64,000 bases of DNA from Escherichia phage Ecwhy_1. The notes beneath the pieces are model-generated. The model did not search any database and was not told where the DNA came from. It saw only the letters and a program-made list of their open reading frames with translations. Both the position numbers and the translations under genes were made by a program. Positions 37,649 through 54,166 of the stretch are shown here, piece after piece (within the stretch, counting starts at the first letter, position 1; each line of letters opens with the position of its first letter). The stretch is from sequence record MH791411.1; one strand, given 5' to 3'.

Positions 37649-37668
37649 GTTGTTAGTACTGCAAGTTA

Positions 37669-40052: not shown

Positions 40053-40135
40053 TTTTCTTTCCTCTTAGTGGGGAGAATCATTTCTCCCCTTCATGTAAAC
40101 TATTATACAGTACTGGATTGCATTGTCAATAGTTT

Positions 40136-40459: not shown

Positions 40460-40486
40460 TTATTGTTATCCTCTATTAAATTAATA

Positions 40487-40675: not shown

Positions 40676-40753
40676 TTTTATTTCCTCTTAGTAGGGGAAG
40701 ATGTTTCCCCTTGATGCAAGTACTATAACAGTACTGAAAACTAAATGCAAGTA

Positions 40754-41110: not shown

Positions 41111-41173
41111 GATTACTATCCTCAGTTAAGATATAAAACATTATACACTATCTTTCAGTACTGTCAATACTTT

Positions 41174-41431
41174 TTATCTCATAGATCTATGCCAACAATT
41201 ACGCGGATCTCTTTTAAAAGTACTATCATGATCCTCCTGGCAAGTAATACAATACATGCACCCTATAACGGCCTGGCGTCGATTCTCAGGGATTTTATCG
41301 CCGCAGTCGAGGCAATGTACAAGTGATTCTCTTTGTGCGTTAATTTGCTTTCTAGCGTGGTTAACGGCGGCCTGAATCACTGCATGAATCTCGTCTTGTT
41401 CGGCCCCGTCTTTCGCGTATCCTACTGCCAT
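41174..41431 (-). CDS. TraR/DksA-family C4 zinc-finger protein
   Basis: CLDCGDKIPENRRQAV ... CITCQ matches CxxC ... IP..RR ... CxxC signature. Confidence 0.6.
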   Translation of the reverse strand: MAVGYAKDGAEQDEIHAVIQAAVNHARKQINAQRESLVHCLDCGDKIPENRRQAVIGCMYCITCQEDHDSTFKRDPRNCWHRSMR

Positions 41432-41594
41432 TATTTTAACCTCATTATAAAAATACTATAGTACTGTAATGCTACAATAATACTACTAGTGTTTATCTTA
41501 TTCAAACCATATGATACTACATATCCACCAGCATTACCACGAATAGTAACGCCTTTGTACTGTCTATATAAATTCAACTGCGTATATTGCCTTT

Positions 41595-41665
41595 GATCAA
41601 GAATTGATCAGAATTATACGCCTTATGCTAAATTGATCCAGTACTTTTTTGATCATTTATTGATC
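41595..41665. repeat. cluster of five TTGATC(A) repeats (5 GATC sites in 71 bp)
   Basis: GATC at 41595, 41606, 41635, 41651, 41662; in long leader upstream of TraR-like gene. Confidence 0.5.
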
Positions 41666-41760
41666 GATATTATATAGTTACATTTGTGCACCCTATGGGT
41701 TAGTGACGTTCTCGTCTTGATGTAAGTATTATGCCAGTACTGGAGGATATTGTCAATAGA

Positions 41761-41964
41761 TTATTTTAATTTTTTTCTGTCATTGATTAATGCTTTCAGT
41801 ACTATACTAATAACTTGCAATGATTCATCAATGACAATGAAATTATTCTCTTTCATTAGATGATAGTTACCATTGATTGTATATTCTAACGAGTACTGTT
41901 TACGTTTAATTTTTGATAATGTTTCTATTTGTTTTTGTACTGATTTCATGCTAATCATTGTCAA
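41761..41964 (-). CDS. hypothetical small protein
   Basis: 67-aa ORF. Confidence 0.4.
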   Translation of the reverse strand: MTMISMKSVQKQIETLSKIKRKQYSLEYTINGNYHLMKENNFIVIDESLQVISIVLKALINDRKKLK

Positions 41965-42063
41965 ACGTCCTGTAACGCATTCTAACGAGATAAACGGTTT
42001 AGTACTGGCATTGTATAGGGTAAATGATTAAAGCCCACCAGCGTTAACCAGTGGGCTATAATA

Positions 42064-42207
42064 TTACATCTTGCGGATAATCTTAACAGTATCTTTCACC
42101 GATTTACCGTTTTGCTGACATTGCTCGATCATCGCGTATTGTTCTGCGGTCAGATCCTCGCCAGTTTTTGCCAGTACTGCGTCGATGAATGAATCCAGTG
42201 CGATCAT
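42064..42207 (-). CDS. hypothetical small protein (47 aa)
   Basis: hand-translated ATG..TAA ORF; GCCCAC/GTGGGC terminator hairpin directly downstream. Confidence 0.35.
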   Translation of the reverse strand: MIALDSFIDAVLAKTGEDLTAEQYAMIEQCQQNGKSVKDTVKIIRKM

Positions 42208-42297
42208 TTTATTTCTCTCTTAGGTTAAGTTAACTACTGTTTATAAAACTTATTATACAGTACTATCAATCTATGTCAATAGTACTGGTAATATATT

Positions 42298-42477
42298 TTA
42301 GCGGTAGTCGTCGTATGCTTTATTCACCTGGCGAATATAACTTTCAAAGGCTTCGTCTACCGTTTCATACTCCCGAACATAATCACCATATGAAACTACA
42401 TACATACCTTTTTGATCTTCAAACGTCATGATGATAGAATCCAGACCAACGATTTCAGTTTTTGCGATGATAGCCAT
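42298..42477 (-). CDS. hypothetical small protein (59 aa)
   Basis: hand-translated ATG..TAA ORF in cassette-like spacing. Confidence 0.35.
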   Translation of the reverse strand: MAIIAKTEIVGLDSIIMTFEDQKGMYVVSYGDYVREYETVDEAFESYIRQVNKAYDDYR

Positions 42478-42560
42478 TTTTTAATTCCTTAGTAGTGTAG
42501 TTGATAAAAGTTATTATGTCAGTACTATCAAACTATGTCAATAGTACTGTGATAATATTT

Positions 42561-42773
42561 TTAGTTAATGATAGTCAGTGTAAAATTGTAATCACCGCAG
42601 CGATATAGCACGTTATTCCCAAATGTCCCAACTAATCGCACATCACACAAAACGCCGGTTTTTTCTTTTACTTCCTTGATACTTGTAACTCCTGTAATAT
42701 CTTTATTAAAGTATTCATGATCTGAAAATAAAACTTGTTTTGCATTTTTTAATTTCGACCGGATATTAGCCAT
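42561..42773 (-). CDS. hypothetical small protein
   Basis: 70-aa ORF with hairpin leader. Confidence 0.45.
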   Translation of the reverse strand: MANIRSKLKNAKQVLFSDHEYFNKDITGVTSIKEVKEKTGVLCDVRLVGTFGNNVLYRCGDYNFTLTIIN

Positions 42774-42869
42774 TTTGTTTTCTCTCTCTGTTAGTGGGGA
42801 GAAGTTTTTCTCCCCTTGATGTAAACTATTATACAGTACTATAATCTATTGTCAAACTATTTTTTTATA

Positions 42870-43211
42870 TTATTCGAAATCTTCTGGACCGGACTGATAA
42901 TCATCTTCACCGTATGCACTTTCTAACCGCTCGCCAGTGTGATCATCAGTTAGTGAGTCATCCTCATAGTTCACGTCTACGCCAGTGATGTAAAACTGGC
43001 TATCGTCTGGATCATTGAAATTAATTTTCTGTATGTTTACAATAACTGTATTGATGCCCAGGACACCGCCATCAGCCGTTACAAAGTACTGATAGTTTTC
43101 GCAACCGCCTGAATTGAAACCGTAATTAATTTCGGCCCGACCATCATTTAAACGCAGTGCCTGGGCGATGATTTCGTTTTCAAAGTTAGATTGAGCAATT
43201 GAGATAGTCAT
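42870..43211 (-). CDS. hypothetical acidic protein
   Basis: trimmed to MTISIAQSNF; acidic C-terminus. Confidence 0.45.
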   Translation of the reverse strand: MTISIAQSNFENEIIAQALRLNDGRAEINYGFNSGGCENYQYFVTADGGVLGINTVIVNIQKINFNDPDDSQFYITGVDVNYEDDSLTDDHTGERLESAYGEDDYQSGPEDFE

Positions 43212-43420
43212 GATTTGTTTCCTTATTACCAGGGGAAACCGTTTCCCCCTCTCGATGTAAAACATTATACGCTTATTGAGATAGTTTGCAAGTACTTTCT
43301 ACAAATACTTTTAAAATAGTTTTCAGTACTCAATACTCATATAATAGATACACTTATGCACCCTGTGGGCTAGTGAGCTATCTCTCAATGAATATATAAT
43401 AGCAAAATGGCTGACCGGAG

Positions 43421-43576
43421 TCAACCACTTTTTTCATTTATTTTTAGCTTTTAGAATCGCCGCCTTTCGCGTCATGCCTTGCTTGATGTATTCTTGTACT
43501 TTCGCTTTACGTGCATTCGCTTTATTTGCTTTCGTAAATGCCGAACAACTTTTATAGTTTAAACCTGTTGGATTCA
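43421..43576 (-). CDS. small basic protein (about 51 aa)
   Basis: hand-translated; Lys/Arg-rich; directly follows TM-peptide ORF; coordinates +/-1. Confidence 0.3.
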
Positions 43577-43667
43577 TTTAAATCACCATAAAGAATAGAT
43601 AGGTTACTAACAACGCCGCGATCAATGCACCGACCAGGGCCGAACTATAGTAAGCTAATGTTTTCAT
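43577..43667 (-). CDS. small hydrophobic peptide (about 29 aa, single TM helix)
   Basis: MKTLAYYSSALVGALIAALLVTYLFFMVI; ATGA overlap with upstream stop; coordinates +/-1. Confidence 0.3.
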
Positions 43668-43816
43668 TTTTTAGCCTGAAAGTAATGTTTAATTTGAGCG
43701 GCGGTCAGTGCACAATTACGCAGGAAGTTTTCTGTATAACTGCGGCGAGTACTGAAAGAGAATTGACCTTTGCCGTTACCGATAGTAACATCAAACCGAG
43801 CGTTGTATTGTTTCAT
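43664..43816 (-). CDS. hypothetical small protein
   Basis: trimmed to MKQYNARFDV after hairpin leader. Confidence 0.4.
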   Translation of the reverse strand: MKQYNARFDVTIGNGKGQFSFSTRRSYTENFLRNCALTAAQIKHYFQAKK

Positions 43817-43897
43817 TTTGATTCTCCTGTTATTGGGGAGAATCATTTCTCCCCTTCATGTAAAACATTATACAGTACTAAAAACTAATTGCAAGTA

Positions 43898-44044
43898 CTA
43901 TTTTTTAGATTTACGCAAACTTTCTACCATCTCAGGAGTAAGGCCCGGCGGGTAGGAAACTACTTCATCAACGAAACGTAAAGGGAATACCCCAGCGAAA
44001 GGTGAACGTGCTTTCTTAGTATTACTCTTTTTTGATGCTTTCAT
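43898..44044 (-). CDS. small basic protein (47 aa)
   Basis: hand-translated ATG..TAG ORF with promoter and hairpin upstream. Confidence 0.35.
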   Translation of the reverse strand: MKASKKSNTKKARSPFAGVFPLRFVDEVVSYPPGLTPEMVESLRKSKK

Positions 44045-44113
44045 TTCATATTCCTTAATTAGTGGGGAGAATCATTTCTCCCCTTCATGTAAAACATTAT
44101 ACGCGTTTAAAAA

Positions 44114-44323
44114 CTAATTGCAAGTACTATTTGAAAGTAAATGCTCATACGCTGCATTAACTACGTTTTCAATAACCGACTGTACAGAAAGATCCCCCAC
44201 GTCCTGGCTATAGTAGAAATCGCTTACAGTGGTGTCATCGTATGCAAATACTTTACCAGGTACTGCATCAATCACATACATATTAACCTTTAAGATGTCG
44301 ATCTTATCCTGTACAGTAAGCAT
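44114..44323 (-). CDS. hypothetical small protein
   Basis: 69-aa ORF. Confidence 0.45.
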   Translation of the reverse strand: MLTVQDKIDILKVNMYVIDAVPGKVFAYDDTTVSDFYYSQDVGDLSVQSVIENVVNAAYEHLLSNSTCN

Positions 44324-44328
44324 ATTAA

Positions 44329-44601
44329 TTAACCTTTTAAGTACTGGCTTAAGTAGTCTTGTTGATCTTCGGTGATTGCAGCCATCTTCCCTAGTACTGG
44401 ATTAATGATATAATCCCCTGTAACGTCCTGTAACGCATTCTCAGGCGGTTTAACGGCTGGGGTAGCCATAGCCATCGCCTGGACTTGTTCGACGCTATAA
44501 CGCTCATATAGGCGGCATTCTTCCGGTGTTAACATAGCATCAATGCGTTTCATTGGTTTAATGATGCTTTCAACTTCATTCAGTACTTGATTAACGTTCA
44601 T
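44329..44601 (-). CDS. hypothetical protein
   Basis: 90-aa ORF. Confidence 0.45.
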   Translation of the reverse strand: MNVNQVLNEVESIIKPMKRIDAMLTPEECRLYERYSVEQVQAMAMATPAVKPPENALQDVTGDYIINPVLGKMAAITEDQQDYLSQYLKG

Positions 44602-44652
44602 GGTATAATCCCCAATATAAGCGGCCTGAATCGACCGCTAACGATGTTTTGA

Positions 44653-44922
44653 TTAATAGGTGTATGGTTGACGTTCAAACAATGATTGCACGTTGTACGC
44701 CCCACTAATGGGCTTTGCTGGTAAATCAATTTTATATTGCTCACGCTTAAAGATAATAAAACGGCAATTGTTTTTAACATCAAAATTGATTGAACGTTCC
44801 AGTAGTTTACCATCGTGCACAAATACAAGATAACCGCTCGCTACTTGTTTTGTAGTACTGGTTGCAACCATAGACCGCCGAACATGTGTACCTGCGTCGA
44901 TTAAAGTACTGATATTTTTCAT
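44653..44922 (-). CDS. hypothetical protein
   Basis: 89-aa ORF. Confidence 0.45.
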   Translation of the reverse strand: MKNISTLIDAGTHVRRSMVATSTTKQVASGYLVFVHDGKLLERSINFDVKNNCRFIIFKREQYKIDLPAKPISGAYNVQSLFERQPYTY

Positions 44923-45002
44923 TATACGTTCCTCTTAAGTTAATTTAATTTCTTTCCCCTATGCAGACACTATATCAAAGTATCTGCATAAAGTAAAGCT
45001 AA

Positions 45003-45326
45003 TTAAAGATCTTTTTTGCGTTTAACATTCTGTACAGTACAATGCAACGGGATATTAAGATCATTGCACAAACGAGTAAGGGAGGTTTCATCAGTATTAA
45101 GCCCGTCTACTGATTCCTTTAATAGATCTAACGCCGTTTGTTGATATGCATCTTCATAGCCATAAGTAAATGATTCAACCGCCAGATCATTCAAACCGTT
45201 ATCCAGTTCGACGCTTACATGACAAGAATGATAAGTATTGCCATATGAATCAGTCCAACGTTTACCGTCAACATTGATTGCACGGATTGCAGCCAGGGAA
45301 ACGGTGTTAATGATAGTTTTAGCCAT
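45003..45326 (-). CDS. hypothetical protein (paralog of 38160..38483)
   Basis: shared RWTDSYGNTYHSCHV ... FTYGY ... VKRKKD. Confidence 0.55.
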   Translation of the reverse strand: MAKTIINTVSLAAIRAINVDGKRWTDSYGNTYHSCHVSVELDNGLNDLAVESFTYGYEDAYQQTALDLLKESVDGLNTDETSLTRLCNDLNIPLHCTVQNVKRKKDL

Positions 45327-45415
45327 TTTTGTATTCCTTAAATTAATATGTTGTCTTGATAAAATCTATTATGCCAGTACTATCAAACTATGTCAATAGT
45401 ACTGTGATAATATTT

Positions 45416-45628
45416 TTACTTACTTTCTTTCGCTGCTTTGTGCGTTGCCACTGCCATAACCACATCAGCACGAACAAAGTTTTTAACCGTGTCGCTGTAA
45501 TAATTGATCGCTTCATCAATATCTGCGAACATCCGATACATACCGCACCACGATACTTTATAACCTGCTTTCACTTCTTCCAGCTTAACCAGTGATTTGT
45601 TAACTTTGATTTTAGTAATGATAGCCAT
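45416..45628 (-). CDS. hypothetical small protein
   Basis: 70-aa ORF. Confidence 0.45.
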   Translation of the reverse strand: MAIITKIKVNKSLVKLEEVKAGYKVSWCGMYRMFADIDEAINYYSDTVKNFVRADVVMAVATHKAAKESK

Positions 45629-45707
45629 TTTATTTTCCTCAGTTGTCTTGATAAAATCTATTATGCCAGTACTATCAAACTATGTCAATAGCACTGTGAT
45701 AATATTT

Positions 45708-45851
45708 TTACTTACTTTTTGCTTTCTTGATTGCTTCCACCTGGTCGGCCCATTCTTTACCCCATACTTGTAAATTATAATGGTACTGGCAAAGAGCAAC
45801 GCCCCGCTTTAAACCCGTAATAGATTTCTGACCACATTGACAAGTTTTCAT
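45708..45851 (-). CDS. small Cys/His-containing protein (47 aa)
   Basis: hand-translated ATG..TAA ORF; CQCG ... CQYH spacing; hairpin leader upstream. Confidence 0.35.
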   Translation of the reverse strand: MKTCQCGQKSITGLKRGVALCQYHYNLQVWGKEWADQVEAIKKAKSK

Positions 45852-45937
45852 TTTAGTTTCCTTGTAGTGGGGAGAACCATTTTCTCCCCTTGATGTAATG
45901 TATTATACTTTATTCGATTTACTTTGCAAGTACTTTT

Positions 45938-46165
45938 TTAATTTAATTCATCAAGGCAAAGGATACGCTCAACGCCCAAATCAGTTAAACTAATCGACGG
46001 CACTTGATAGGTTTCAATGTATGCTACACTTGCCCACTGACCGAACTCATTAACGGCCCAGGTATTCATTGCATTTTGCAATTCCGCACCTTCCTTGTTG
46101 GTAATGACTGCAACTACTTGTTCGTTGCCAGTAGTACCAGATACGCGAGTAATGATAATAGCCAT
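45938..46165 (-). CDS. hypothetical small protein
   Basis: trimmed to MAIIITRVSG. Confidence 0.4.
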   Translation of the reverse strand: MAIIITRVSGTTGNEQVVAVITNKEGAELQNAMNTWAVNEFGQWASVAYIETYQVPSISLTDLGVERILCLDELN

Positions 46166-46406
46166 TGTTTTGATTCCTTTGATTTGGAAGGAGAACCGTT
46201 TCCCCCTCTCGATGTAAAACATTATACGCTAATCTCTTAATCGTGCAAGTACTTTTTATTACTTTTTGCAAAATACTTTAAACGCTCTCAATCGCGTTCT
46301 TACAGCCTTAACGCCACCAGCTAGGGCAATGCATCAGATAATCAGTTTAATGCGTTAGAATCGTTTCTAGGCGGTGCTGGTGGCATGGTAAACGATAAAC
46401 ACAAAA

Positions 46407-46430
46407 AAGCCCACCGTTTAAGGTGGGCTA
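46407..46430 (-). terminator. rho-independent terminator
   Basis: GCCCACC ... GGTGGGC hairpin followed by T6 on minus strand. Confidence 0.65.
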
Positions 46431-46450
46431 GTGATTCAGTACTTTAATTG

Positions 46451-46933
46451 TTATGCTTCAACTTTGCGATGAGATTCGATCCATTCCTCGCGAGTCATAC
46501 CGCTGGCGTTAATCGCGTCCAGTACTACCGCAATGCAGTTACCACGCACCGGAATCAGATATTCTTCCCCGTTGTCCAGTACTACCGCTACGCGTTCCTG
46601 AATCCATTTTTTGGCTTTTACTTCTGGCTTGTCTTCCCCATACTTAACCGCCAGGGCTTTTTGTGCCATCTCTGTAACTACTTCCAGATCCAATCCAACT
46701 ACTGCCGCCTGAATACTTTCGATTGTTGCTTGTAGTTCTGCTTCACGGGCCGCCTTTGCCGCTTCAATTTCTGCCGCTTTATTTGCTTGTAGTTCTTTCG
46801 CAGTACTGTACGCGATGTTAAAATTATTGCGTACCGCTTTCATGGTATCGTTATCCAGTTCAGCCAGGATCTCAGCCGCGACGTTAGTTTCATTTGCTAC
46901 CAGTGCTTTGATGAATGATTTTACATTAGCCAT
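46451..46933 (-). CDS. hypothetical protein with Ala/Glu-rich helical segment
   Basis: trimmed to MANVKSFIK; terminator directly downstream. Confidence 0.5.
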   Translation of the reverse strand: MANVKSFIKALVANETNVAAEILAELDNDTMKAVRNNFNIAYSTAKELQANKAAEIEAAKAAREAELQATIESIQAAVVGLDLEVVTEMAQKALAVKYGEDKPEVKAKKWIQERVAVVLDNGEEYLIPVRGNCIAVVLDAINASGMTREEWIESHRKVEA

Positions 46934-47142
46934 TTTATAAATCCTCAATTAAAGTTTAGTTTACGTTTATTAGTGTATCAAAGTTTTCTCGACGTGTCCA
47001 GTTTTTCGTTCGACTTACTGGCGGTCTACTTAGTGCTCCCCGTCTTGATGTAATACATTCTACGCTTTTCTGCGGTAATGTCAACTACTTTCTTAAAACT
47101 ATTTTCAAAGTATCTCAGTACTACGATACTACAAAAACAAAA

Positions 47143-47160
47143 AAGCCCACCAGGTGGGCT
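47143..47160 (-). terminator. rho-independent terminator
   Basis: GCCCACC/GGTGGGC hairpin plus T-run on minus strand. Confidence 0.6.
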
Positions 47161-47166
47161 ATGTAC

Positions 47167-47397
47167 TTAATCAGTGAGTAAAATATTAAACACTTTACCA
47201 TTTAACGTTATTGGTGCACTGCTACCAGGCACAAGATCCGTTAGTATACCTGCAATCGCTTTATCATTGGCTACCTTTCCAGTGTCCAACAGTACTACAG
47301 TACTGATAAGATTAACGCTCGTTTCAATATCATAATGCACGGCGTTAAGTAGTTGTGTAGTACTGCTTTCGTTAAGTAAAACAATTCGCTTAGTCAT
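47167..47397 (-). CDS. hypothetical small protein
   Basis: 76-aa ORF with terminator downstream. Confidence 0.45.
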   Translation of the reverse strand: MTKRIVLLNESSTTQLLNAVHYDIETSVNLISTVVLLDTGKVANDKAIAGILTDLVPGSSAPITLNGKVFNILLTD

Positions 47398-47418
47398 GAT
47401 GTTACCCCGTAGTATCTA

Positions 47419-47718
47419 TCAACGGCAATTAATAACGCCGGTATGAGTTACTTTCTCGGTATCCATTACAGTGACCGAACCGCGTTTAGCACTGGCATCA
47501 TAATAAATTGTCGTGCTACCGTTTTCGTCTTCTTCATGGAACGGGCCGTTTTTAAATGCTTCCGGCTGGATCTCTAAATCCTTTAATACAATCTCGCCAG
47601 TTCTTTCATCGGTCATTGCAACAGTGCACTGAATGAATTTTTCACTACTTACATCTAATGACGCATTAACAGCGAAAGAGGAAACAGATAAAGCCAGGGC
47701 GATGATTGCAATTTTCAT
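47419..47718 (-). CDS. secreted/periplasmic small protein (signal peptide)
   Basis: N-terminus MKIAIIALALSVSSFAVNA: charged-hydrophobic-AxA pattern. Confidence 0.5.
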   Translation of the reverse strand: MKIAIIALALSVSSFAVNASLDVSSEKFIQCTVAMTDERTGEIVLKDLEIQPEAFKNGPFHEEDENGSTTIYYDASAKRGSVTVMDTEKVTHTGVINCR

Positions 47719-47802
47719 TTGATTATCCTTAGTTACCAGGGGAAACCGTTTCCCCTTGCGATGTAAAATATTATACAGTACTAAAAACTAATTGCAAGTA
47801 CT

Positions 47803-48039
47803 TTATGATTTTTTATAAAACATTTCAGCAGTGATATTTTTACCCGTTGGCTGTACTTTATCCAGAATTTTTTGATGCCCTGGTCGTCCAAAGGAATATG
47901 ATCCGTAAACAGTAAACCAGTAGTTACCCTCAGTGTTTACATGTACAGCACAATAAGGAACACCACGCGATTCATCACTAGTAAAGTGTGATACCGTTCC
48001 CGTTACATTCGCAGACGTTGATTTGATTTGTTCGACCAT
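47803..48039 (-). CDS. hypothetical small protein
   Basis: 78-aa ORF, cassette upstream. Confidence 0.45.
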   Translation of the reverse strand: MVEQIKSTSANVTGTVSHFTSDESRGVPYCAVHVNTEGNYWFTVYGSYSFGRPGHQKILDKVQPTGKNITAEMFYKKS

Positions 48040-48147
48040 TTTCTTATTCCTTAGTTACCAGGGGAACCGCTCCCCCTATGCAAAACATTATACGCGTTTA
48101 AAAACTAATTGCAAGTATTTTAATAAAAAGTATTTGAAAAATAGTTG

Positions 48148-48290
48148 TTGACAAGTGCATCCAGTACTGGCATAATTACTACATCAAGACGAAACAGTCA
48201 CTAACCCACCGGGTGCCGAGATCCGTCTATTAAATGATTCAGTACTGAAAAAGTAACGGGGAGTTATTATCTCCCCGTGTTGTTATTTTG
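48148..48290 (+). ncRNA. candidate small RNA / orphan plus-strand transcription unit
   Basis: TTGACA-N17-CATAAT promoter (48148-48176), no ORF, ends at bidirectional terminator hairpin CGGGGAGttattatCTCCCCG plus T-run. Confidence 0.3.
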
Positions 48291-48504
48291 TAAGGTATAA
48301 ACAGAAGTCGCCTTTATTTGCTACGCCGCCAGTGTAACGCGAGGAATAGTTAGAAACGTCCTGGACTTCTGCTATTACCAGGGTATCATCATTCAATTCG
48401 TCGCAGAAGCAAACGGCTGGATCTTGTACGCCGATTTTGTCGGCATGTTCCCGCATAGATTTAACCAGTGCTTCCAGTTGGGAAAGAGTAGTGATATTAG
48501 CCAT
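48283..48504 (-). CDS. hypothetical small protein
   Basis: trimmed to MANITTLSQL. Confidence 0.45.
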   Translation of the reverse strand: MANITTLSQLEALVKSMREHADKIGVQDPAVCFCDELNDDTLVIAEVQDVSNYSSRYTGGVANKGDFCLYLTK

Positions 48505-48588
48505 TTTATTTTCCTCATTACCAGGGAGAACCATTTCTCCCTTTGATGTAAACCATTATACAGTACTGAAAACTAATTGCAAGTACTT

Positions 48589-48777
48589 TTAATTAAATTC
48601 CATAAAATCATTTTCAACGTGCACAACAATCTGATTATTTTTAAAGGACGCAGAAAACTCTATACAATCATAAACCGCTTTTTCTGTTACCAGACTATGA
48701 GCACCAATCGGATTAATTGGGGATTGAATTGTTTCAATCTCGTTACCTTGTTCATTAACGATTAAAATATTAAACAT
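48589..48777 (-). CDS. hypothetical small protein
   Basis: 62-aa ORF, ATG verified. Confidence 0.45.
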   Translation of the reverse strand: MFNILIVNEQGNEIETIQSPINPIGAHSLVTEKAVYDCIEFSASFKNNQIVVHVENDFMEFN

Positions 48778-48816
48778 TGCCGTTACTCCTGGATAGTGTT
48801 AACTCGATATAAAGTA

Positions 48817-48999
48817 TTATACGCCTTTATTGCTTAGTGTCCAGTGATCACGCATCATACGCCCCGCACGATCCCAGCTAGTAGGCATGGGTATGCCTTG
48901 CAATTCGTTAGGGGAGATCTCGACCTCGATCCCTACATCAATAACAGTCATTCCAGCTTTCGCAGCTTGCTCGCGGATAACCTCAGATAATGTTGTCAT
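48817..48999 (-). CDS. hypothetical small protein
   Basis: 60-aa ORF. Confidence 0.4.
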   Translation of the reverse strand: MTTLSEVIREQAAKAGMTVIDVGIEVEISPNELQGIPMPTSWDRAGRMMRDHWTLSNKGV

Positions 49000-49073
49000 G
49001 ATTAAAGCTCCTGGATAGTGTTAACTCGATATAAAGTATTATACAGTACTGAAAACTAATTGCAAGTACTTTT

Positions 49074-49334
49074 TTAATATTGTTTGTCGTCGTCTTCCTC
49101 GATGAATTGACCGACGAAATGATCTACTTTCGCTTTGAGGCTTTTATAATCTTCTTCTACTTCCGTTAAACGTTCCTGGTAGTATTCCAATGCTTCAAGA
49201 TACGCCGCCTCAGCAGTTTTTGCACGCATAGCTAAATTCATTCCACGCGTTTCATCAAATAGCCAATAACCATCGGTGCACTGGCTAATAGATAATGACT
49301 TGCTTAGTACTGTATAGCTAATTACTTTACTCAT
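49074..49334 (-). CDS. hypothetical protein
   Basis: 86-aa ORF with terminator-like hairpin downstream. Confidence 0.45.
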   Translation of the reverse strand: MSKVISYTVLSKSLSISQCTDGYWLFDETRGMNLAMRAKTAEAAYLEALEYYQERLTEVEEDYKSLKAKVDHFVGQFIEEDDDKQY

Positions 49335-49391
49335 TAGATAACCCTCAGTAAAGGCGGGAACTATTACCCGCCATTATCTCAGTACTGAATA

Positions 49392-49631
49392 TTACATTCC
49401 AACCATTGCAGCACGGATCGCAGTAGTGCTATACTTAAAGCCGTCCGGCGTTGTAGTAGTACCGTTGGCTTTTAATCTGCGGTACATACATTCCGCAGCA
49501 ATATCTTTAGTTCTACTTTGTGCGATGCAACTTTGAGCAAGCCGATACAATGACTCACCGTTATTAATCCAAAGGCTTACATTCCAATGAGTTTTGTTTT
49601 TGTGTCCGTTGTAAGTTTTAGTACTAGCCAT
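49392..49631 (-). CDS. hypothetical protein (paralog of 51432..51671)
   Basis: shared GHKNKTHWNVSLWINN ... TPDGFKYSTTAIRAAMVGM. Confidence 0.55.
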   Translation of the reverse strand: MASTKTYNGHKNKTHWNVSLWINNGESLYRLAQSCIAQSRTKDIAAECMYRRLKANGTTTTPDGFKYSTTAIRAAMVGM

Positions 49632-49721
49632 TTTTAAATCCTCGTTTGAGCGGGGAACCACTCCCCGCCTCGATATAAAGTATTATACGCTTTTAAACTT
49701 AGTTTGCAAGTACTTTTTAAA

Positions 49722-50333
49722 TTAATATTCGATTGATTCCACTACGCCATCAATAACATTGAATTGATACTCGTTACCCTCAATCAGTGCCGTAATGTTT
49801 TCAGTAGTGAATTGATCCTCATATGCATTCTCTAAATCACGGTACAACTTGCGGGACAATTCACGAATAGTTTCAGTGAGTAGTTCCTCAAGCTCATTAA
49901 CTAACGTTTCTTGTTTTGCGGTTAAATCAGTGTAAGCCGATTCAATGTACCCGCTTACAGTATTCTCATGCGAGTAGTGGGAGTGCGAACGTTTTACACT
50001 CATCGCCAAATCATCTTCATTCAGCAAGTGACGGATTGAGCGATACTTAGTTAATGCTCTTACCTTGCGTAAAAACTTCACTGCGTCAACGTGGTCAGTA
50101 CTGATTGATGCACCGTCACCCTGGGACCAAAAACCACTGAATTGTATTTCAGCGTCATTAATGCCATATTCCGGTAGTACTGTTTCTTTATAGTATTCAA
50201 TTTCACTTTCAGAAAAATAATTGTCGTTTGAGTTTTTTTCACGTTCCCGAACCAGTTCGATAGCTGACGTTTGTTGTTCTGCGTTCAATTCAGAAAAAGC
50301 CATAACATAAGTAGTAGTAGTGATAGTTTTCAT
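49722..50333 (-). CDS. hypothetical protein
   Basis: 203-aa ORF; FSGFWSQGDGASI motif of unknown affiliation; tandem promoters upstream. Confidence 0.5.
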   Translation of the reverse strand: MKTITTTTYVMAFSELNAEQQTSAIELVREREKNSNDNYFSESEIEYYKETVLPEYGINDAEIQFSGFWSQGDGASISTDHVDAVKFLRKVRALTKYRSIRHLLNEDDLAMSVKRSHSHYSHENTVSGYIESAYTDLTAKQETLVNELEELLTETIRELSRKLYRDLENAYEDQFTTENITALIEGNEYQFNVIDGVVESIEY

Positions 50334-50557
50334 TTTGTAACCCTCATTCAGTAGTTGATGTAAGTATTATACGCTTTTAAAAACATTTGTCAAACTATTT
50401 TATCAGGGGAGTTTTTCGTGTGCCTTACTCCTGGGCTACTTAACGGGAAGTTACTTATTTCGTTCCCCGTCCTGATGTAAAACATTATACGCCTTTAAAC
50501 ATAGTTTGCAAGTACTTTTTAAAAATAGTTTTCAGTACTGAATAGTAAAAAAAAGTA

Positions 50558-50586
50558 TTGACAGCATTATCAAGTACTGGTATAAT
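50558..50586 (+). promoter_or_regulatory. orphan sigma70-type promoter TTGACA-N17-TATAAT
   Basis: plus strand, no ORF downstream; faces minus-strand promoter at 50702-50730. Confidence 0.5.
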
Positions 50587-50701
50587 ATACCCCATGACAA
50601 CAGCTAACCCACCGGGTGCACAATTGTAACTATACTAAACTAATTTTTCTATAGATACACTCCCGCACCCTATGGGCTACGGCTTATCTGCCAATGAATA
50701 C

Positions 50702-50730
50702 ATTATGCCAGTACTGACAAAATAAGTCAA
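50702..50730 (-). promoter_or_regulatory. sigma70-type promoter TTGACT-N17-CATAAT (convergent partner)
   Basis: read on minus strand; leader contains AGCCCATAGGGTGC. Confidence 0.5.
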
Positions 50731-50760
50731 TACCGGCAATTGTAAAGATTTGTAAACTGC

Positions 50761-50997
50761 TTATACTGCAATCGCGTCCAGGCTATAATAATAATAAGTG
50801 CCGTATTGGTGTACTTTATTACCTTTTATTTCAGTACTGAATGAATCCGAACGGTTTGCATATGATGTTAATTTAAAGTACTTTGATTTGCTGATACGTT
50901 GCCATACACCACAGATCCGCTGTAAGTAAGTAGTTTTATTCGTGGTAGTATCTTTTACGGTTTTAACTTCAGTCATATACATATTAGTCATTTTCAT
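50761..50997 (-). CDS. hypothetical small protein
   Basis: 78-aa ORF. Confidence 0.4.
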   Translation of the reverse strand: MKMTNMYMTEVKTVKDTTTNKTTYLQRICGVWQRISKSKYFKLTSYANRSDSFSTEIKGNKVHQYGTYYYYSLDAIAV

Positions 50998-51078
50998 TAC
51001 TCCAGGTTATAGGCGGGAAGAGTTCCCGCTCTCGATGTAAAACATTATACGCCATTAAACATAGTTTGCAAGTACTTT

Positions 51079-51342
51079 TTATTCAAGTACTGCAATCTTT
51101 TTAGTACGGTACACGGTCACGCGGTTGCCCTTTCGGTCGAGCTTTATTTCTACCACTCGACGCGATACACTATCGGGACTTTTTAAGGCCGCTAACCAGT
51201 ACTGTAATGATCTGGCGGTACTACGCTTTACAATGGCCCAACGTTTACCACGTTCCGATTGTACGCCCATATCTTTAAACGTTGCCCCGTCCTGGCGTGC
51301 GGCGATCCGAGCTTGTTCACGCGTCGCAAAATACTTAATTTT
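51079..51342 (-). CDS. hypothetical protein (paralog of 37669..38073)
   Basis: trimmed to MKIKYFATREQ; shared motifs with 37669..38073. Confidence 0.5.
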   Translation of the reverse strand, partial: KIKYFATREQARIAARQDGATFKDMGVQSERGKRWAIVKRSTARSLQYWLAALKSPDSVSRRVVEIKLDRKGNRVTVYRTKKIAVLE

Positions 51343-51431
51343 CATGCTGTTGCCCTTATCGTTGGTGTATGAATAAAACACTATTATAAAGTACTATCGC
51401 AAAAAAATGATAGTACTTTAAATAAATTCTA

Positions 51432-51671
51432 TTACATTCCAACCATCGCCGCACGGATCGCAGTAGTGCTATATTTGAATCCGTCCGGTGTTTTATCTTG
51501 TCCAGTCTGTTCTAAAAATAACATCATATGACGGGCCGCATCATTGCGATTAGTGCTATCGTTAATAAAGTCCTGGGCCAACCGATACAATCCCTCATCG
51601 TTATTAATCCAAAGGCTTACATTCCAATGAGTTTTGTTTTTGTGACCTAAGAACATTTTTGATTTAGCCAT
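51432..51671 (-). CDS. hypothetical protein (paralog of 49392..49631)
   Basis: trimmed to MAKSKMF; C-terminus identical to paralog. Confidence 0.55.
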   Translation of the reverse strand: MAKSKMFLGHKNKTHWNVSLWINNDEGLYRLAQDFINDSTNRNDAARHMMLFLEQTGQDKTPDGFKYSTTAIRAAMVGM

Positions 51672-51764
51672 TTTTTTAATCCTCTTATATAGTGGGGAAC
51701 TATTCCCCACCTGATGTAAAACATTATACGCCATTAAACATAGTTTGCAAGTACTTTATTAAAC

Positions 51765-52127
51765 TTATTTGTAAATTTTGCCACTGTCAGCCCATACCAG
51801 GAAACGAGGCATATTATCCCATGCATCTTGTTTTAAGTTTAAGCCGTGCAATTCCTCAGTTGTTGCCATCCCTGGTACTGGCTTACTACACACCGCGAAA
51901 TTTTCGCCCATATACTGATAAACCATCGTCAAATCATTTGAGATCATTATATGGATCATTGAATCCAGCATCAAAGTAGCGGCGTATTGTTCACGCTTAA
52001 GCGGCAACATTGCAATAAGTTCCCGATAAGCTGCAATGTGAATTTTTACAGTTTCAGCCGGAAGACCTTTCATCTCATCGCGGAAGTTTACCAGGTTAAG
52101 CATGATTTTATTGATTTGAGTCGCCAT
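51765..52127 (-). CDS. hypothetical protein
   Basis: trimmed to MATQINKIML. Confidence 0.45.
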   Translation of the reverse strand: MATQINKIMLNLVNFRDEMKGLPAETVKIHIAAYRELIAMLPLKREQYAATLMLDSMIHIMISNDLTMVYQYMGENFAVCSKPVPGMATTEELHGLNLKQDAWDNMPRFLVWADSGKIYK

Positions 52128-52490
52128 CGTTTTAATCTCTCTTAATGTGTAGCGGGAAGTGTTCCCGCTCTCGATGTAAAACATTATACGCTTTTATCAG
52201 TACGGTGCAAGTACTTTCTACAAATACTTTTAAAATAGTTTTCTTTCTATATAGGAGTACTATTATTCAGTACTGCAATCATCCAGGGGAACTATCTTTC
52301 TATATAGGAGTACTATTATTCAGTACTGAATCAATCCACTAAATCATCCCTATACCCCGTAAAACGTCCTCAGACGCATTCTAACGCATTAATACACATA
52401 AGCTATACATTTGCACCATTCCAATCATTCCAGGGCTTTACAGGCCGTTTAAACGCGTTAAATTATTTTCAATTATTTTGTTTTTAGGTA

Positions 52491-52518
52491 TTGACTTGAT
52501 CCTGAAAAAGCGTATAAT
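52491..52518 (+). promoter_or_regulatory. orphan sigma70-type promoter TTGACT-N16-TATAAT
   Basis: plus strand in ORF-poor region. Confidence 0.45.
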
Positions 52519-52716
52519 TACTACATAGACGCGAGAAAGCGGATACCCCAGGGGGTGGGAAGATCCGTCCAAAATTCAAGATATAAAAAAAGGATACACT
52601 CCCGCACCCTAGCAGGTAAACGCACTTTCTCAGTACTGAAATATAGTACCATAGTCCGGCCCAGGATAGCAAGCAAATTAATTAAAACTTTTTTGCTTCC
52701 AGGGTATTGCTTTATT

Positions 52717-52744
52717 TTTCCAGTACTGTATAATAGTTCCATCA
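52717..52744 (+). promoter_or_regulatory. orphan promoter (TTGCTT ... CAGTACTG-TATAAT)
   Basis: plus strand; leader contains AGCCCACCGGGTGC. Confidence 0.4.
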
Positions 52745-52956
52745 AGTCGAGAAAGACTCAAGCCCACCGGGTGCATAGTTACGCCCAAAATTCAGTACTG
52801 AAAAAATTTTTAAAAATATCCGGCCAGGCCGTTGACATTGCCCCCAGTTTATAAGATAATGATTCCAGATTCAGAAAAATCTAACACCAGATACTGCGGG
52901 GAAACTATCCCCACGCGGTAGGGGAACTATTGGAAAAAACAAAATAAAATTTTGAT

Positions 52957-53100
52957 TTAGCCGTCTATACTTCCAGACGTGTAACCATCTAGCCGTTTAG
53001 CCGTCCAAACGTCTAGCCATCCAGCCATCCAGAAATCTAGCCGTTTAGCCGTCTAGATGGATAGCCATCTTTACTTCCAGACTTCTGGAGGGCTAGACAT
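52957..53100. repeat. 8-bp periodic tandem repeat array (about 18 units, consensus TAGCCGTC)
   Basis: in-register 8-mers tagccgtc/tagccgtt/tagccatc/cagccatc ...; flanked by TACTTCCAGAC repeats and CCAGAcTTCTGG palindrome. Confidence 0.7.
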
Positions 53101-54166
53101 ATCTACGCCCAAAATCCATCCAGGGTAACTACGCCCAAAATCCGTCAGTACTATACCATAGATCTATCTTTTGAAAGGGAGTATTCAGTACTGCCATCAT
53201 AGCCCTCACTATGTTACCCTAGGAGGATGAAGACCATCATGTAGTACTGAATACTGTTAGAGGGAATCCACCAGCTTGTGCTGGTGGCATAATGCTTTAG
53301 ATTAAAATCAGTACTGACACCATTCTGTTAATATCAGTACTGTTATTACGATTTTCATATGAGGTTCAAAAAGATGTACCACCACAGGAGGAACTATCTT
53401 TTCTGTACTGTCTCACGACAGGAGGTAGAGTAAATGAATTGTTCGCAGCAACTCATCACCCTATGTAGAACATTATACAGTACTGAATCATAAAGTCAAT
53501 AACTTTCTTTCATCTTTCAGTACTGATATTCTTGAGAACTACCCGACTACAAACATCATTATATCCCACAAATCATAAACGTCCCAACGTAAATTTCAAC
53601 TTTCGAAGATCCAACTTTTATTTCATAGGTACTCCAAAATTTTTAGGATCGAGATTTAGGATGGAGTACTAACCAACTTTTTGCTGGAGCCTCAAGGGGT
53701 AATGGAATTTTACCCCGAAGGGTAAAGGGGTAATTGAAATTAAGGTGAAAGTAATAATTCAGTACTAATCATTGCGTGATTACTTTTGATTACATTTGAT
53801 GTAATTTGCAAAATGGAAAAGGAGCTTGGAAACTACAAAGTACGGCAGACTTCCTCTGCCTACTTAGTGGGATATCGCCACCTTCAGTACTGAATACTTT
53901 TAGGGCAGTACTGAATCCTTCCCTAGCATTCTTGAGTAATCTTGTCTATAATAATCAGTACTGAATCATATATAATCATTCTGTGATTCTACGGTGCTCA
54001 TATAAATGTTTATATATGATTACTTATGACTACATATGATTACGGGGTTTAGCCTGGGGAGAATCCTAGTGATCGCATTTGTCCAGGCTGAATTTTAACA
54101 ATTCTTCTAATTGTTAAAGCCTGTCCAATGCTTTCCCTGCGGAGCTTCCCCTGTCTATATGTTGAA

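What the first reader, a model, noticed from the sequence alone, without database searches (positions are those of the whole stretch)
52200..54160. About 2 kb ORF-poor hub with orphan promoters, hairpins and repeats; candidate origin or sRNA cluster
Between the cassette block and the Fam-C arrays there is no convincing ORF on either strand (track ORFs here lack ATG and SD and read through promoter-like sequence). The region holds at least three plus-strand promoters, many CAGTACTG copies, the 8-bp array, duplicated 40-bp blocks (52240-52330) and perfect hairpins such as GGGGTAAtggaattTTACCCC (about 53697-53717) and TTAACAATTcttctAATTGTTAA (about 54090-54112). Gene-free, repeat-dense regions at this density are typical of replication origins, packaging signals or regulatory RNA loci.
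Basis: partly seen in the sequence, partly recalled or inferred. Interest (0 to 1): 0.55.

Follow-up and report, generated by a model that had tools for sequence, protein, structure and literature searches.

The report
Untranslated end region of jumbo-phage terminal repeat
The gene-free 2 kb stretch is the non-coding region that holds the physical end of a 350-kb jumbo coliphage chromosome, at the boundary of its 22-kb terminal repeat; it also carries host-type early promoters that start a previously undescribed family of small two-hairpin RNA units.

Summary
Window 52200-54160 has no credible gene and is dense in repeats, hairpins and sigma-70 promoters.

The window comes from an Asteriusvirus (PBECO4/121Q group) and is 99% identical to phage fEgEco12. 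That phage's 21-kb direct terminal repeat (DTR) was mapped by PhageTerm and restriction digests. Six deposited genomes start at the same base, which is window 53864. The hub is therefore the outermost 1.66 kb of the DTR (window 31912-53864) plus about 300 bp of adjoining unique DNA.

- Both DTR boundaries carry inverted copies of (G/C)CTA^AG, in two genera.
- The DTR part of the hub is 97-100% identical across 11 phages. Neighbouring genes are about 93% identical, and identity collapses just outside the end.
- The 8-bp array is unique in the window. It recurs about 0.7-0.9 kb from the end in two other genera, and in a T5-like Aeromonas phage.
- Promoters P1, P2 and an antisense promoter each start a covariation-supported two-hairpin unit. 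The window holds 11 copies, all in the DTR. The unit has no Rfam match.

The closest analogue is the untranslated repeat region of the T5 terminal repeat, but there are no DnaA boxes here. The origin reading rests only on a local GC-skew flip.

The parts
31912..53864 (.). Direct terminal repeat (DTR), single collapsed copy in this window. The hub is its outermost 1.66 kb.
   Evidence: fEgEco12 record positions 1 and 20993 map to window 53864 and 31912. The DTR was mapped by PhageTerm and restriction digests in PMC13070987.
53863..53867 (-). Physical left end of virion DNA, the cut site. On the minus strand it reads ...CCCACTA^AGTAGGC. The first base of the genome is window 53864.
   Evidence: Six deposited Asteriusvirus genomes start at this base. 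The motif (G/C)CTA^AG is found inverted at the right DTR boundary, and at both boundaries of Klebsiella phage Muenster.
53844..53860 (-). Hairpin GGCAGAGGAAGTCTGCC, starting 5 nt inside the end. It contains GAAGTC at positions +12 to +17.
   Evidence: Fold z-score -3.9. RAAGTC sits at +12 to +17 from the record start in four genera. It was also flagged as terminator-like.
53777..53810 (+). 10-bp tandem repeats TGATTACWTT just inside the end. A second set lies outside the end at 54006-54043.
   Evidence: (family D3)
54006..54043 (+). 10-bp tandem repeats ATGATTACAT, 3.8 copies, in unique DNA outside the end.
53885..53967 (.). Three CAGTACTGAAT copies in the poorly conserved unique DNA just outside the end.
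   Evidence: Similar tandem TTCAGTACT copies precede the cut site in Muenster. Identity across phages is 0.57-0.78 here.
53623..53689 (.). End-proximal conserved island: inverted repeat AGTACTCC...GGAGTAC enclosing two ATCCTAAA repeats. Candidate recognition site for end formation.
   Evidence: 82-93% identical to sequence 54-192 nt from the record start in XbC2 (Mimasvirus) and Munch. TRF reports period 13. 99-100% identical across Asteriusviruses.
53472..53499 (-). Sigma-70 promoter TTGACT-16-TATAAT pointing into the repeat. It is the strongest of three inward-pointing promoter-like sites within ~400 nt of the end (two weaker 10/12 sites lie closer, at 53558-53599).
   Evidence: 11/12 match
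53309..53342 (-). Terminator-like hairpin made of two CAGTACTG copies followed by a T-run, about 130 nt downstream of the 53499 promoter.
53100..53146 (+). Two tandem copies of CTACGCCCAAAATCC. Related copies end the P1 and P2 units.
   Evidence: family D7. Four of the five CCAAAATYC copies in the window lie in the hub.
52958..53070 (.). 8-bp periodic array, about 12-14 copies, consensus TAGCCGTC.
   Evidence: The same unit lies ~670-770 nt from the record start in XbC2 and pEa_SNUABM_12. A T5-like phage, AhSzq-1, has a ~30-copy array of it.
52832..52960 (+). Promoter P3 (52832-52860) and its leader. The leader has a 5' hairpin AGAUU-CAGAAA-AAUCU, then the hairpin GGGGAAACUAUCCCC. No ORF follows.
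   Evidence: Fold z-score -3.0.
52707..52786 (+). Promoter P2 (52707-52734) and two-hairpin unit (52739-52786).
   Evidence: Covariance-model hit of 38.7 bits. Promoter and unit are conserved in Klebsiella RaK2-type phages.
52592..52672 (-). Antisense promoter TTGCTA-18-TACTAT (52643-52672) and two-hairpin unit (52592-52639), convergent with P1.
   Evidence: The same convergent pairing is seen in five genera.
52491..52570 (+). Promoter P1 (52491-52518) and two-hairpin unit (52523-52570). Together with the 52592-52639 unit it forms a convergent dyad with a 21-nt gap.
   Evidence: 49.5 bits. 87-92% identical in Munch, XbC2 and SNUABM_12, where the flanks are unalignable.
52242..52338 (+). Two 44-nt direct repeats, each carrying AGTACT and CAGTACTG.
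   Evidence: family D6
52183..52210 (-). Promoter of the first early gene of the repeat (gene 51765-52184). It marks the inner edge of the hub.
   Evidence: The sequence reads TTGCAC-16-TATAAT, followed by a hairpin, a Shine-Dalgarno site and ATG. The gene is annotated g01 in fEgEco12.
54095..54117 (.). AT-rich perfect hairpin in a variable block of unique DNA, about 50 nt past the stop codon of the last Fam-C gene.
   Evidence: Identity is 0.57 here.

Best explanation
The hub is the untranslated control region at one boundary of the phage's ~22-kb direct terminal repeat. Three things are superimposed in it.

(1) The chromosome end itself (shown). Virion DNA begins at window 53864.

Inferred: in replicating concatemers the packaging nuclease cuts or nicks at (G/C)CTA^AG. 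This motif sits in opposite orientation at the two repeat boundaries, 22 kb apart. Strand-displacement synthesis between staggered nicks would then give each packaged genome two copies of the repeat. The end-proximal hairpin, the ATCCTAAA island, the 10-bp repeats and the 8-bp array are the candidate cis-acting sites. They would serve recognition, packaging, or DNA exit and entry.

(2) An early-transcription start zone (shown by sequence and conservation only). Sigma-70 promoters read inward into the early genes of the repeat (53499, 52672, 52210). Others read outward toward the end (P1, P2, P3).

(3) Three members of a repeat-wide family of promoter-proximal RNA units. Each has a 5' hairpin with a purine-rich GAGAAA-type loop. 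A second hairpin, RCCC-N3-4-GGGU, follows. Two of the three face each other as a convergent dyad.

Inferred: the units act on their own transcripts, for example as a nut/put-like signal to RNA polymerase or as a stabilising 5' structure. Dyad transcripts fold into a long hairpin or pair with each other.
For: Terminus
- The window is 99.2% identical to fEgEco12. That phage's 20,993-bp DTR was found by PhageTerm and confirmed by restriction digests (PMC13070987).
- Record position 1 maps to window 53864.
- fEgEco12, vB_Ec-M-J (annotated DTR), BF17, CRJP21, E9.1 and ELP-22 all start at that base.
- Left and right junctions in Asteriusvirus and in Muenster, whose DTR was mapped by PhageTerm in another laboratory, share (G/C)CTA|AG in inverted orientation.

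Constraint
- 52860-53860 is 97-100% identical among 11 phages. Flanking genes are ~93% identical, and identity falls to 0.57-0.78 immediately outside the end.

Conserved layout
- Munch, XbC2, pEa_SNUABM_12 and Muenster also have a 1.3-1.8 kb ORF-free leader at the record start.
- They share islands at similar distances from the start: the end-proximal island, the 8-bp array and the P1 dyad.

RNA units
- Covariance model R1 finds 11 units in the window, all inside the DTR, and 66 in 16 loci. It also finds new members in loci not used to build it.
- Hairpin 1 shows 18 different stems around the same loop. 96% of units have a stem of 3 bp or more, against 60% of shuffles.
- Hairpin 2 shows compensated variants: ACUC/GAGU, ACCU/AGGU and ACGC/GCGU.
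- The covariation score exceeds all 500 shuffles and every slid control.
- In 48 of 58 units a -10 element ends 1-4 nt before the unit. 74% score 9/12 or better as promoters, against 8% of random sites.

Background from relatives
- In the related phage CBB, RpoD-type promoters cluster in the early short-ORF region, which includes the DTR (PMC5259590).
- The distant relative PA5oct uses host RNA polymerase, transcribes its DTR early, and has two abundant RNA-seq-defined ncRNAs in the DTR (PMC7318152).
Against: - The end was mapped in close relatives, not in this isolate.
- Some of the six records may simply have been re-opened to match an earlier one.
- The cut-site motif is only 5-6 nt and was noticed after the fact.
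- XbC2, Munch and SNUABM_12 records start with TATCT rather than AG, so the motif is not universal, or their starts are not true ends.
- No experiment links the array or the island to packaging.
- No transcription data exist for this phage group.
- The outward promoters have no evident product or terminator.
- The model-fitted alignment pairs only 50% of hairpin-1 cells, because the loop position shifts between units. The stronger hairpin-1 evidence comes from my own per-sequence scan.
- A palindromic DNA site would also keep hairpin-2 symmetry.
Confidence: 0.7

Rival explanations
1. Replication origin. Transcripts from P1-P3, or proteins bound to the repeats, open the DNA here and prime bidirectional replication. 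This would resemble the promoter-plus-unwinding-element origins of T4 or the primary origin of T7.
For: - The plus-strand GC skew changes from negative to positive at about 54 kb. The cumulative minimum falls at the hub.
- The skew flips here although gene orientation flips only at about 58.8 kb.
- The hub has strong orphan promoters and repeat arrays.
- The non-coding DNA is very highly conserved.
Against: - There are no DnaA boxes, even allowing one mismatch.
- GC content (0.39) equals that of neighbouring DNA, so composition does not mark an AT-rich unwinding region.
- The skew was examined only within this 64-kb window. The anomaly could reflect the odd composition of the Fam-C genes.
- The conservation break sits exactly at the mapped end, which fits an end function better.
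- In T5, the comparable repeat region is not an origin (bioRxiv 10.1101/866236).
Confidence: 0.12
2. T5-like injection stop signal. If the opposite chromosome end enters first, the hub lies 22 kb in (about 6% of the genome). It would then sit at the inner boundary of the entering repeat. There it would halt DNA transfer until the early genes of the repeat are expressed.
For: The architecture matches T5 Repeat Region 3, as described in bioRxiv 10.1101/866236:
- a ~1.2-kb untranslated region full of repeats and palindromes;
- a position at a DTR boundary, overrunning it by 270 bp (here 296 bp);
- better conservation than the DTR genes, also seen here.

In addition:
- the early genes of the repeat point away from the hub toward the far end;
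- the same 8-bp array occurs in an ORF-free gap of a T5-like Aeromonas phage, next to a DnaA box.
Against: - The paired DnaA boxes that characterise the T5 region are absent.
- There is no significant sequence similarity to T5 RR3, and T5 has no 8-bp array.
- Two-step transfer has never been reported for these phages.
- It is unknown which end enters first.
- A1/A2 homologues were not looked for.
Confidence: 0.1
3. Decayed gene cassettes. The hub would be a graveyard of promoter-plus-hairpin cassettes that lost their ORFs through recombination between repeated promoters. It would have no function of its own beyond containing the end.
For: - P3 has the cassette-type hairpin GGGGAAACUAUCCCC but no ORF.
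- The promoter-hairpin-gene cassettes next door vary in number between phages.
- The motifs GGGGAACTAT and CAGTACTG are scattered through the hub.
Against: - Identity of 97-100% across 11 phages, higher than in adjacent genes, is the opposite of decay.
- Specific islands are conserved across five genera at matching distances from the end.
Confidence: 0.05

Closest known systems
Untranslated Repeat Region 3 (the 'iss' region) of the phage T5 left terminal repeat
   Same: - A kilobase-scale region without ORFs inside a long DTR that carries early genes.
- Packed with direct repeats, inverted repeats and palindromes.
- Straddles a DTR boundary by about 270-300 bp.
- More conserved among relatives than the neighbouring DTR genes.
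(bioRxiv 10.1101/866236; here)
   Different: - No DnaA boxes here.
- No meaningful sequence similarity, different repeat families, and no 8-bp array in T5.
- The host-range group and virion type differ.
- Here the region also holds convergent promoters with structured RNA units.
- Two-step injection is not known for this group.
Phage T7 concatemer junction (terminal repeat flanked by short-repeat arrays SRL/SRR, with promoters reading toward the junction). This comparison is from my own knowledge of Dunn & Studier 1983 and Chung & Hinkle 1990; I did not check it in the library.
   Same: - Defined ends with a direct terminal repeat.
- An array of short (7-8 bp) imperfect repeats near the repeat boundary.
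- Promoters that transcribe toward the end.
- A model of staggered cuts followed by fill-in synthesis that duplicates the repeat.
   Different: - The repeat is 22 kb rather than 160 bp.
- The array lies about 800-900 bp from the end.
- The promoters are host sigma-70 type, not phage RNA polymerase type.
- No function has been tested here.
Promoter-proximal RNA signals of lambdoid phages (lambda nut boxB, HK022 put). This comparison is from my own knowledge.
   Same: - Small stem-loops with purine-rich loops.
- Placed a few nucleotides to tens of nucleotides downstream of early sigma-70 promoters.
- The stem sequence is free to vary while the loop is conserved.
   Different: - Hexaloop GAGAAA or GCGAAA rather than a GAAAA-type pentaloop.
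- A second invariant CCC/GGG hairpin.
- No boxA was identified and no N-like protein is known.
- Eleven copies per repeat, several of them antisense to genes or arranged face to face.
Abundant ncRNAs in the DTR of jumbo phage PA5oct (PMC7318152)
   Same: A related jumbo phage that depends on host RNA polymerase. Its long DTR is transcribed early and encodes highly expressed ORF-less RNAs.
   Different: Model R1 finds no unit in the first 23 kb of the PA5oct DTR, which includes both ncRNAs. There is no sequence relationship.

Membership tests
Physical genome end / DTR boundary of a terminally repeated phage | The position coincides with an experimentally mapped end. | tested here: met
   fEgEco12 (99% identical) was mapped by PhageTerm and restriction digests. 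Its base 1 maps to window 53864.
Physical genome end / DTR boundary of a terminally repeated phage | The same boundary is found in independent isolates. | tested here: met
   Six records start at the identical base. Conservation breaks exactly there.
Physical genome end / DTR boundary of a terminally repeated phage | Doubled read depth or read-start pile-up in this isolate's own data. | not testable with these tools
   No reads are available for the window's source.
T5-type untranslated repeat region / injection stop signal | A large ORF-free, repeat-rich region at a boundary of a long DTR, conserved more than the DTR genes. | tested here: met
   compared.
T5-type untranslated repeat region / injection stop signal | Paired DnaA boxes within large inverted repeats. 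| tested here: not met
   No TTWTNCACA site, and no 9-mer within one mismatch of TTATCCACA, in 52100-54300.
T5-type untranslated repeat region / injection stop signal | Two-step DNA transfer that depends on pre-early proteins. | not testable with these tools
   This needs infection experiments.
Replication origin | Initiator boxes plus an AT-rich unwinding element. | tested here: not met
   No DnaA boxes. GC content is 0.39, the same as the flanks. The repeat arrays could still bind an unknown phage initiator.
Replication origin | Strand-composition switch. | tested here: inconclusive
   The skew sign changes at about 54 kb. Only 64 kb was examined, and the result is confounded by the Fam-C genes.
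Known RNA families (Rfam 15, tRNA, tmRNA) | A score at or above the family threshold. | tested here: not met
   No hits at gathering scores. At E<=10 only sub-threshold matches appear, the best being SCARNA7 at E=0.028 and 20 bits against a cutoff of 65, all to eukaryotic or unrelated families. No tRNA.
Structured RNA (generic): promoter-coupled two-hairpin unit | Compensatory base changes that preserve the helices. | tested here: met
   18 distinct stems for hairpin 1, three compensated variants for hairpin 2, and 0/500 shuffles reaching the observed covariation score.
Structured RNA (generic): promoter-coupled two-hairpin unit | The unit is transcribed. | tested here: inconclusive
   A fixed -10 element lies 1-4 nt upstream in 48 of 58 units. 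No RNA data exist for this phage group.
Lambda nut / HK022 put antitermination signals | A promoter-proximal stem-loop with a conserved purine-rich loop. | tested here: met
Lambda nut / HK022 put antitermination signals | A boxA element or N-type protein, or a demonstrated terminator read-through. | not tested
   No search for boxA or an arginine-rich N-like protein was made. Read-through needs experiments.

The most novel reading that the evidence does not exclude
The promoter-coupled two-hairpin units are a new class of phage regulatory RNA. They are confined to the terminal repeats of RaK2-like jumbo phages. They would be made in many copies by host RNA polymerase in the first minutes of infection.

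Two roles are possible. As cis-acting signals they could reprogramme the transcribing polymerase, in the manner of nut or put sites. As abundant decoy RNAs they could target a host factor. The convergent dyad in the hub would be a conserved switch or insulator placed next to the chromosome end.
Probability: 0.3. Interest if true: 0.7.

Novelty: new variant of a known kind. Interest (0 to 1): 0.55.

Why it matters
These 350-kb coliphages are being developed for therapy, yet more than 80% of their genes and all of their non-coding DNA are unexplained.

Placing the chromosome end, a candidate cut-site motif and a ~1-kb ultra-conserved cis-acting region gives concrete targets for three questions: how very long terminal repeats are made, how they are packaged, and how they are delivered.

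The two-hairpin units are a testable new RNA element. They are present about 11 times per repeat, so about 22 times per virion genome, and occur in at least five genera. They would be made at the very start of infection.

The shared 8-bp array with a T5-like phage hints that unrelated long-repeat phages use a common end-region component.

Tried and rejected
- tRNA/tmRNA scan: nothing.
- Rfam at gathering and at E<=10: only sub-threshold matches, all to eukaryotic or unrelated families.
- Pfam and PHROGs on nine hub ORFs: nothing. The 99-aa ORF that fEgEco12 annotates as g614 spans P1, P2 and P3, and is rejected as a gene.
- Muenster gene 001 (50 aa, opposite strand) overlaps only part of the conserved block. 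Conservation is not bounded by it. It is rejected as the cause of the conservation.
- Metagenome pattern scan: the pattern was too loose. Only L069 and L133 looked genuine by eye, against about 120 chance hits.
- Bacterial and archaeal genome scan: one hit, in a Staphylococcus MAG, which R1 does not recognise. The unit therefore appears not to be host-derived.
- IMG/VR scan with the terminal hairpin sequence: 121Q plus two unrelated chance hits.
- MAFFT and model-fitted alignments place hairpin 1 in the wrong register for many units.
- PA5oct DTR ncRNAs, T5 RR3 and AhSzq-1: no R1 units.
- T5 RR3: no 8-bp array and no real similarity.
- DnaA boxes: none. IHF sites: one weak match.
- Whole-genome GC skew was considered and not run. 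It would be costly and would stay confounded by gene orientation.
Full report
**What the window is.** Megablast of 52100-54300 finds 43 phage records. The best is Escherichia phage fEgEco12 (99.2% identity, full length, opposite orientation). PBECO4, 121Q, phAPEC6, SP27 and other Asteriusvirus jumbo coliphages follow. In the curated annotations of phAPEC6, PBECO4 and SP27 the same ~2 kb carries no gene. fEgEco12 has one 99-aa hypothetical gene called there.

**Checking the observation.**
- The ORF list shows only short ORFs with TTG or GTG starts, plus one 65-aa ATG ORF that overlaps a promoter.
- Nine hub ORFs give no Pfam or PHROGs match, apart from one Pfam hit far below its cutoff.
- There is no tRNA and no credible Rfam match.
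- The promoter scan finds P1 (52491-52518) and P3 (52832-52860) at 11/12. It also finds an 11/12 promoter on the other strand at 53499-53472. The overall count of promoter-like sites is not above shuffles.
- P2 (52707-52734) scores 9/12.
- The duplicated 44-nt blocks, the 8-bp array, the 10-bp repeats and both hairpins are present.
- CAGTACTG is enriched in the hub at 6.6 per kb, against 1.8 per kb in the surrounding repeat. It is a window-wide motif, with 69 copies against about 8 expected. AGTACT occurs 282 times.

**The hub contains the chromosome end.**
- The fEgEco12 paper reports a linear 374,733-bp genome with 20,993-bp direct terminal repeats. These were found by PhageTerm and confirmed by restriction digests (PMC13070987).
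- Base 1 of that record aligns to window 53864, and base 20,993 to window 31912.
- The window therefore holds one collapsed copy of the repeat, 31912-53864. This matches the GC step near 32 kb.
- Six deposited genomes begin at exactly this base with AGTAGGCAGAGGAAGTCTGCC. They are fEgEco12, vB_Ec-M-J (annotated 'Direct Terminal Repeats'), BF17, CRJP21, E9.1 and ELP-22.
- The finding thus covers the outermost 1.66 kb of the repeat plus 296 bp of adjoining unique DNA.

**A candidate cut-site motif.** I compared both boundaries in this phage with those of Klebsiella phage Muenster (Alcyoneusvirus). Its repeat (1-20,030) was predicted by PhageTerm in a different laboratory.
- The left junctions read CCCACTA|AGTAGG and GCCACTA|AGTCCG.
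- The reverse complements of the right junctions read GTCGCTA|AGGTTA and AGTGCTA|AGCCTA.
- All four share (G/C)CTA|AG, so the two boundaries of each repeat carry the motif in inverted orientation.
- This is what a model of staggered nicks on opposite strands, followed by strand-displacement synthesis, would predict. That mechanistic step is my inference.
- A hairpin starts 5 nt inside the end (z-score -3.9).
- RAAGTC lies at +12 to +17 from the record start in Asteriusvirus, Muenster, XbC2 and pEa_SNUABM_12.

**Conservation.** I aligned 11 Asteriusvirus hub sequences, including 121Q.
- 52860-53860 is 97-100% identical.
- The adjacent early gene is about 93% identical.
- Identity drops to 0.57-0.78 in the 80 nt just outside the end.

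Non-coding DNA that is better conserved than its neighbouring genes, with a break exactly at the mapped end, argues for cis-acting function and against decay.

**The layout is shared by the wider RaK2-like clade.**
- Munch, XbC2 (Mimasvirus), pEa_SNUABM_12 (Eneladusvirus) and Muenster each have 1.3-1.8 kb without genes at the record start.
- Most of that DNA cannot be aligned to the window. Three islands can, and they lie at similar distances from the start.
- Island 1 is window 53623-53689. It is an inverted repeat AGTACTCC...GGAGTAC around two ATCCTAAA repeats.
- Island 2 is the 8-bp array.
- Island 3 is P1 with its downstream ~65 nt, at 87-92% identity.
- The array is the only strong period-8 stretch in the 64 kb. 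The same unit lies ~670-770 nt from the record start in XbC2 and SNUABM_12.
- Unexpectedly, the T5-like Aeromonas phage AhSzq-1 has a ~30-copy array of the same unit (CTAGCCGT/CTAAACAT). It lies in a 950-bp ORF-free gap, with AGTACT-type promoters and a perfect DnaA box nearby.

**A family of promoter-coupled two-hairpin units.**
- Alignment with the Klebsiella phages shows that P1, P2 and the sequence after each are conserved, while the flanks are not.
- A small opposite-strand ORF annotated in Muenster covers only part of the conserved block.
- Collecting homologues from IMG/VR and metagenomes showed a common unit.
- The unit starts with a sigma-70 promoter. Hairpin 1 follows within a few nucleotides: a 3-5 bp stem with a loop of GAGAAA, GCGAAA, AGAUAA or AGAACAA. 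Hairpin 2 comes 3-5 nt later: RCCC-N3-4-GGGU. A semi-conserved tail ends the unit.

The covariance model (R1) and the promoter check gave these results:
- 11 units in the window, all inside the repeat and none in the 42 kb outside it;
- 66 units in 16 loci;
- new members in loci that were not used for training;
- a covariation score above all 500 shuffles and all slid controls, although the fitted alignment mis-registers hairpin 1;
- 18 different stems around the conserved loop in my per-sequence scan, with 96% of units having a stem of 3 bp or more against 60% of shuffles;
- compensated hairpin-2 variants ACUC/GAGU, ACCU/AGGU and ACGC/GCGU, plus six G-U closing pairs, which favour RNA on the promoter-sense strand;
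- in 48 of 58 units the best -10 element ends 1-4 nt before the model start, and 74% score 9/12 or better against 8% of random sites;
- one hit in 596 Gb of bacterial and archaeal genomes, which R1 does not recognise.

**Units in the hub.**
- The three hub units are 52523-52570(+), 52592-52639(-) and 52739-52786(+).
- The first two face each other with 21 nt between their 3' ends.
- The same geometry recurs at 50584/50653 in the window, and it is the usual form in the other genera.
- A transcript crossing a dyad folds into a long hairpin (z-score -3.7 and -2.8).
- P3 starts a variant leader with a hairpin-1-like stem-loop and the cassette-type hairpin, but no ORF follows it.

**What I conclude.**
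- *Shown.* The region is ORF-poor and repeat-dense. It contains the mapped end of closely related genomes. It is under strong constraint. It carries conserved promoters with structured downstream units.
- *Inferred.* The cut mechanism, the packaging role of the array and island, and the action of the units.

**Comparison with known systems.** The closest known system is the untranslated Repeat Region 3 of the T5 terminal repeat. It is 1.2 kb long and full of repeats and palindromes. It overruns the repeat boundary by 270 bp. It is more conserved than the repeat's genes and is thought to hold the injection stop signal (bioRxiv 10.1101/866236). Its defining paired DnaA boxes are absent here, and there is no sequence similarity. 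This hub therefore works like that kind of region at most; it is not a member of it. The T7 concatemer junction and the lambda nut / HK022 put signals are further analogues, drawn from my own knowledge.

**The origin reading.** It rests only on the GC-skew sign change at about 54 kb. That change does coincide with the end rather than with the change of gene orientation at about 58.8 kb. It was seen only within this window, and it may reflect the unusual Fam-C genes.

**Literature.**
- The CBB paper places RpoD-type promoters with UP elements in the early short-ORF region, including the repeat.
- The PA5oct paper shows an early-transcribed 39-kb repeat with two abundant ncRNAs. These are not homologous to the units found here.
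- No paper found in the library describes this hub, the cut-site motif or the units.

Noticed in passing
whole window; examples at 51750, 52210, 52722, 53479: AGTACT occurs 282 times and CAGTACTG 69 times (about 8 expected). It is absent from 18-24 kb and 28-32 kb. It is fused to the -35 element (AAAGTACTTGCA) or lies directly 5' of the -10 element (CAGTACTGGCATAAT, which supplies a TGn extended -10). It looks like part of the early-promoter architecture, or an operator for a phage regulator.
   Followed up: partly
window 31912|31911: The other boundary of the terminal repeat. In record orientation it reads ...GGGTAACCT|TAGCGACTTCG, with an inverted copy of the CTA^AG motif. It coincides with a GC step from 0.32 to 0.42.
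   Followed up: partly
window 54167-58800: The tandem ~62-aa Fam-C genes are on the minus strand, yet the plus-strand GC skew is positive here. This is opposite to every other minus-strand gene block in the window. The skew flips at the repeat end, not where gene orientation flips.
   Followed up: no
window 33314-33361, 36066-36113, 39341-39388, 41676-41723, 43346-43393 (all -), 48181-48228 (+), 50584-50631 (+), 50653-50699 (-): Eight further two-hairpin units lie inside the repeat. The five solitary minus-strand units (33314 to 43346) each have their own promoter and are followed 45-110 nt downstream by a second sigma-70 promoter. In four of them that promoter carries the standard hairpin-SD-ATG gene cassette. 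The result is tandem promoters about every 2-3 kb.
   Followed up: partly
L155 (Aeromonas phage AhSzq-1, NC_047949.1) 2931-3175: A T5-like phage carries about 30 copies of the same 8-bp unit (CTAGCCGT/CTAAACAT) in an ORF-free gap. AAGTACTTGACA promoters and a TTATCCACA box lie nearby. It also has a GCGAATGA...TTCGC palindrome like those in the dyad loops of the jumbo phages.
   Followed up: partly
window 53434-53493 (+): A 19-codon mini-ORF (MNCSQQLITLCRTLYSTES) with AGGAGG 8 nt upstream, in the ultra-conserved part of the hub. Conservation is too high to test for coding.
   Followed up: no
window 36140-36172, 39415-39447, 33388-33420 (-): Promoters of several solitary units sit inside a 7-bp inverted repeat (AAAGGGA TTGACT...TCCCTTT). 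The -35 element therefore lies in the loop of a potential hairpin.
   Followed up: no
window DTR interior versus fEgEco12: The repeat is 21,953 bp in this window against 20,993 bp in fEgEco12. Neighbouring phages differ by whole small-gene cassettes next to the hub (PBECO4 and WPEC5 have extra genes).
   Followed up: partly
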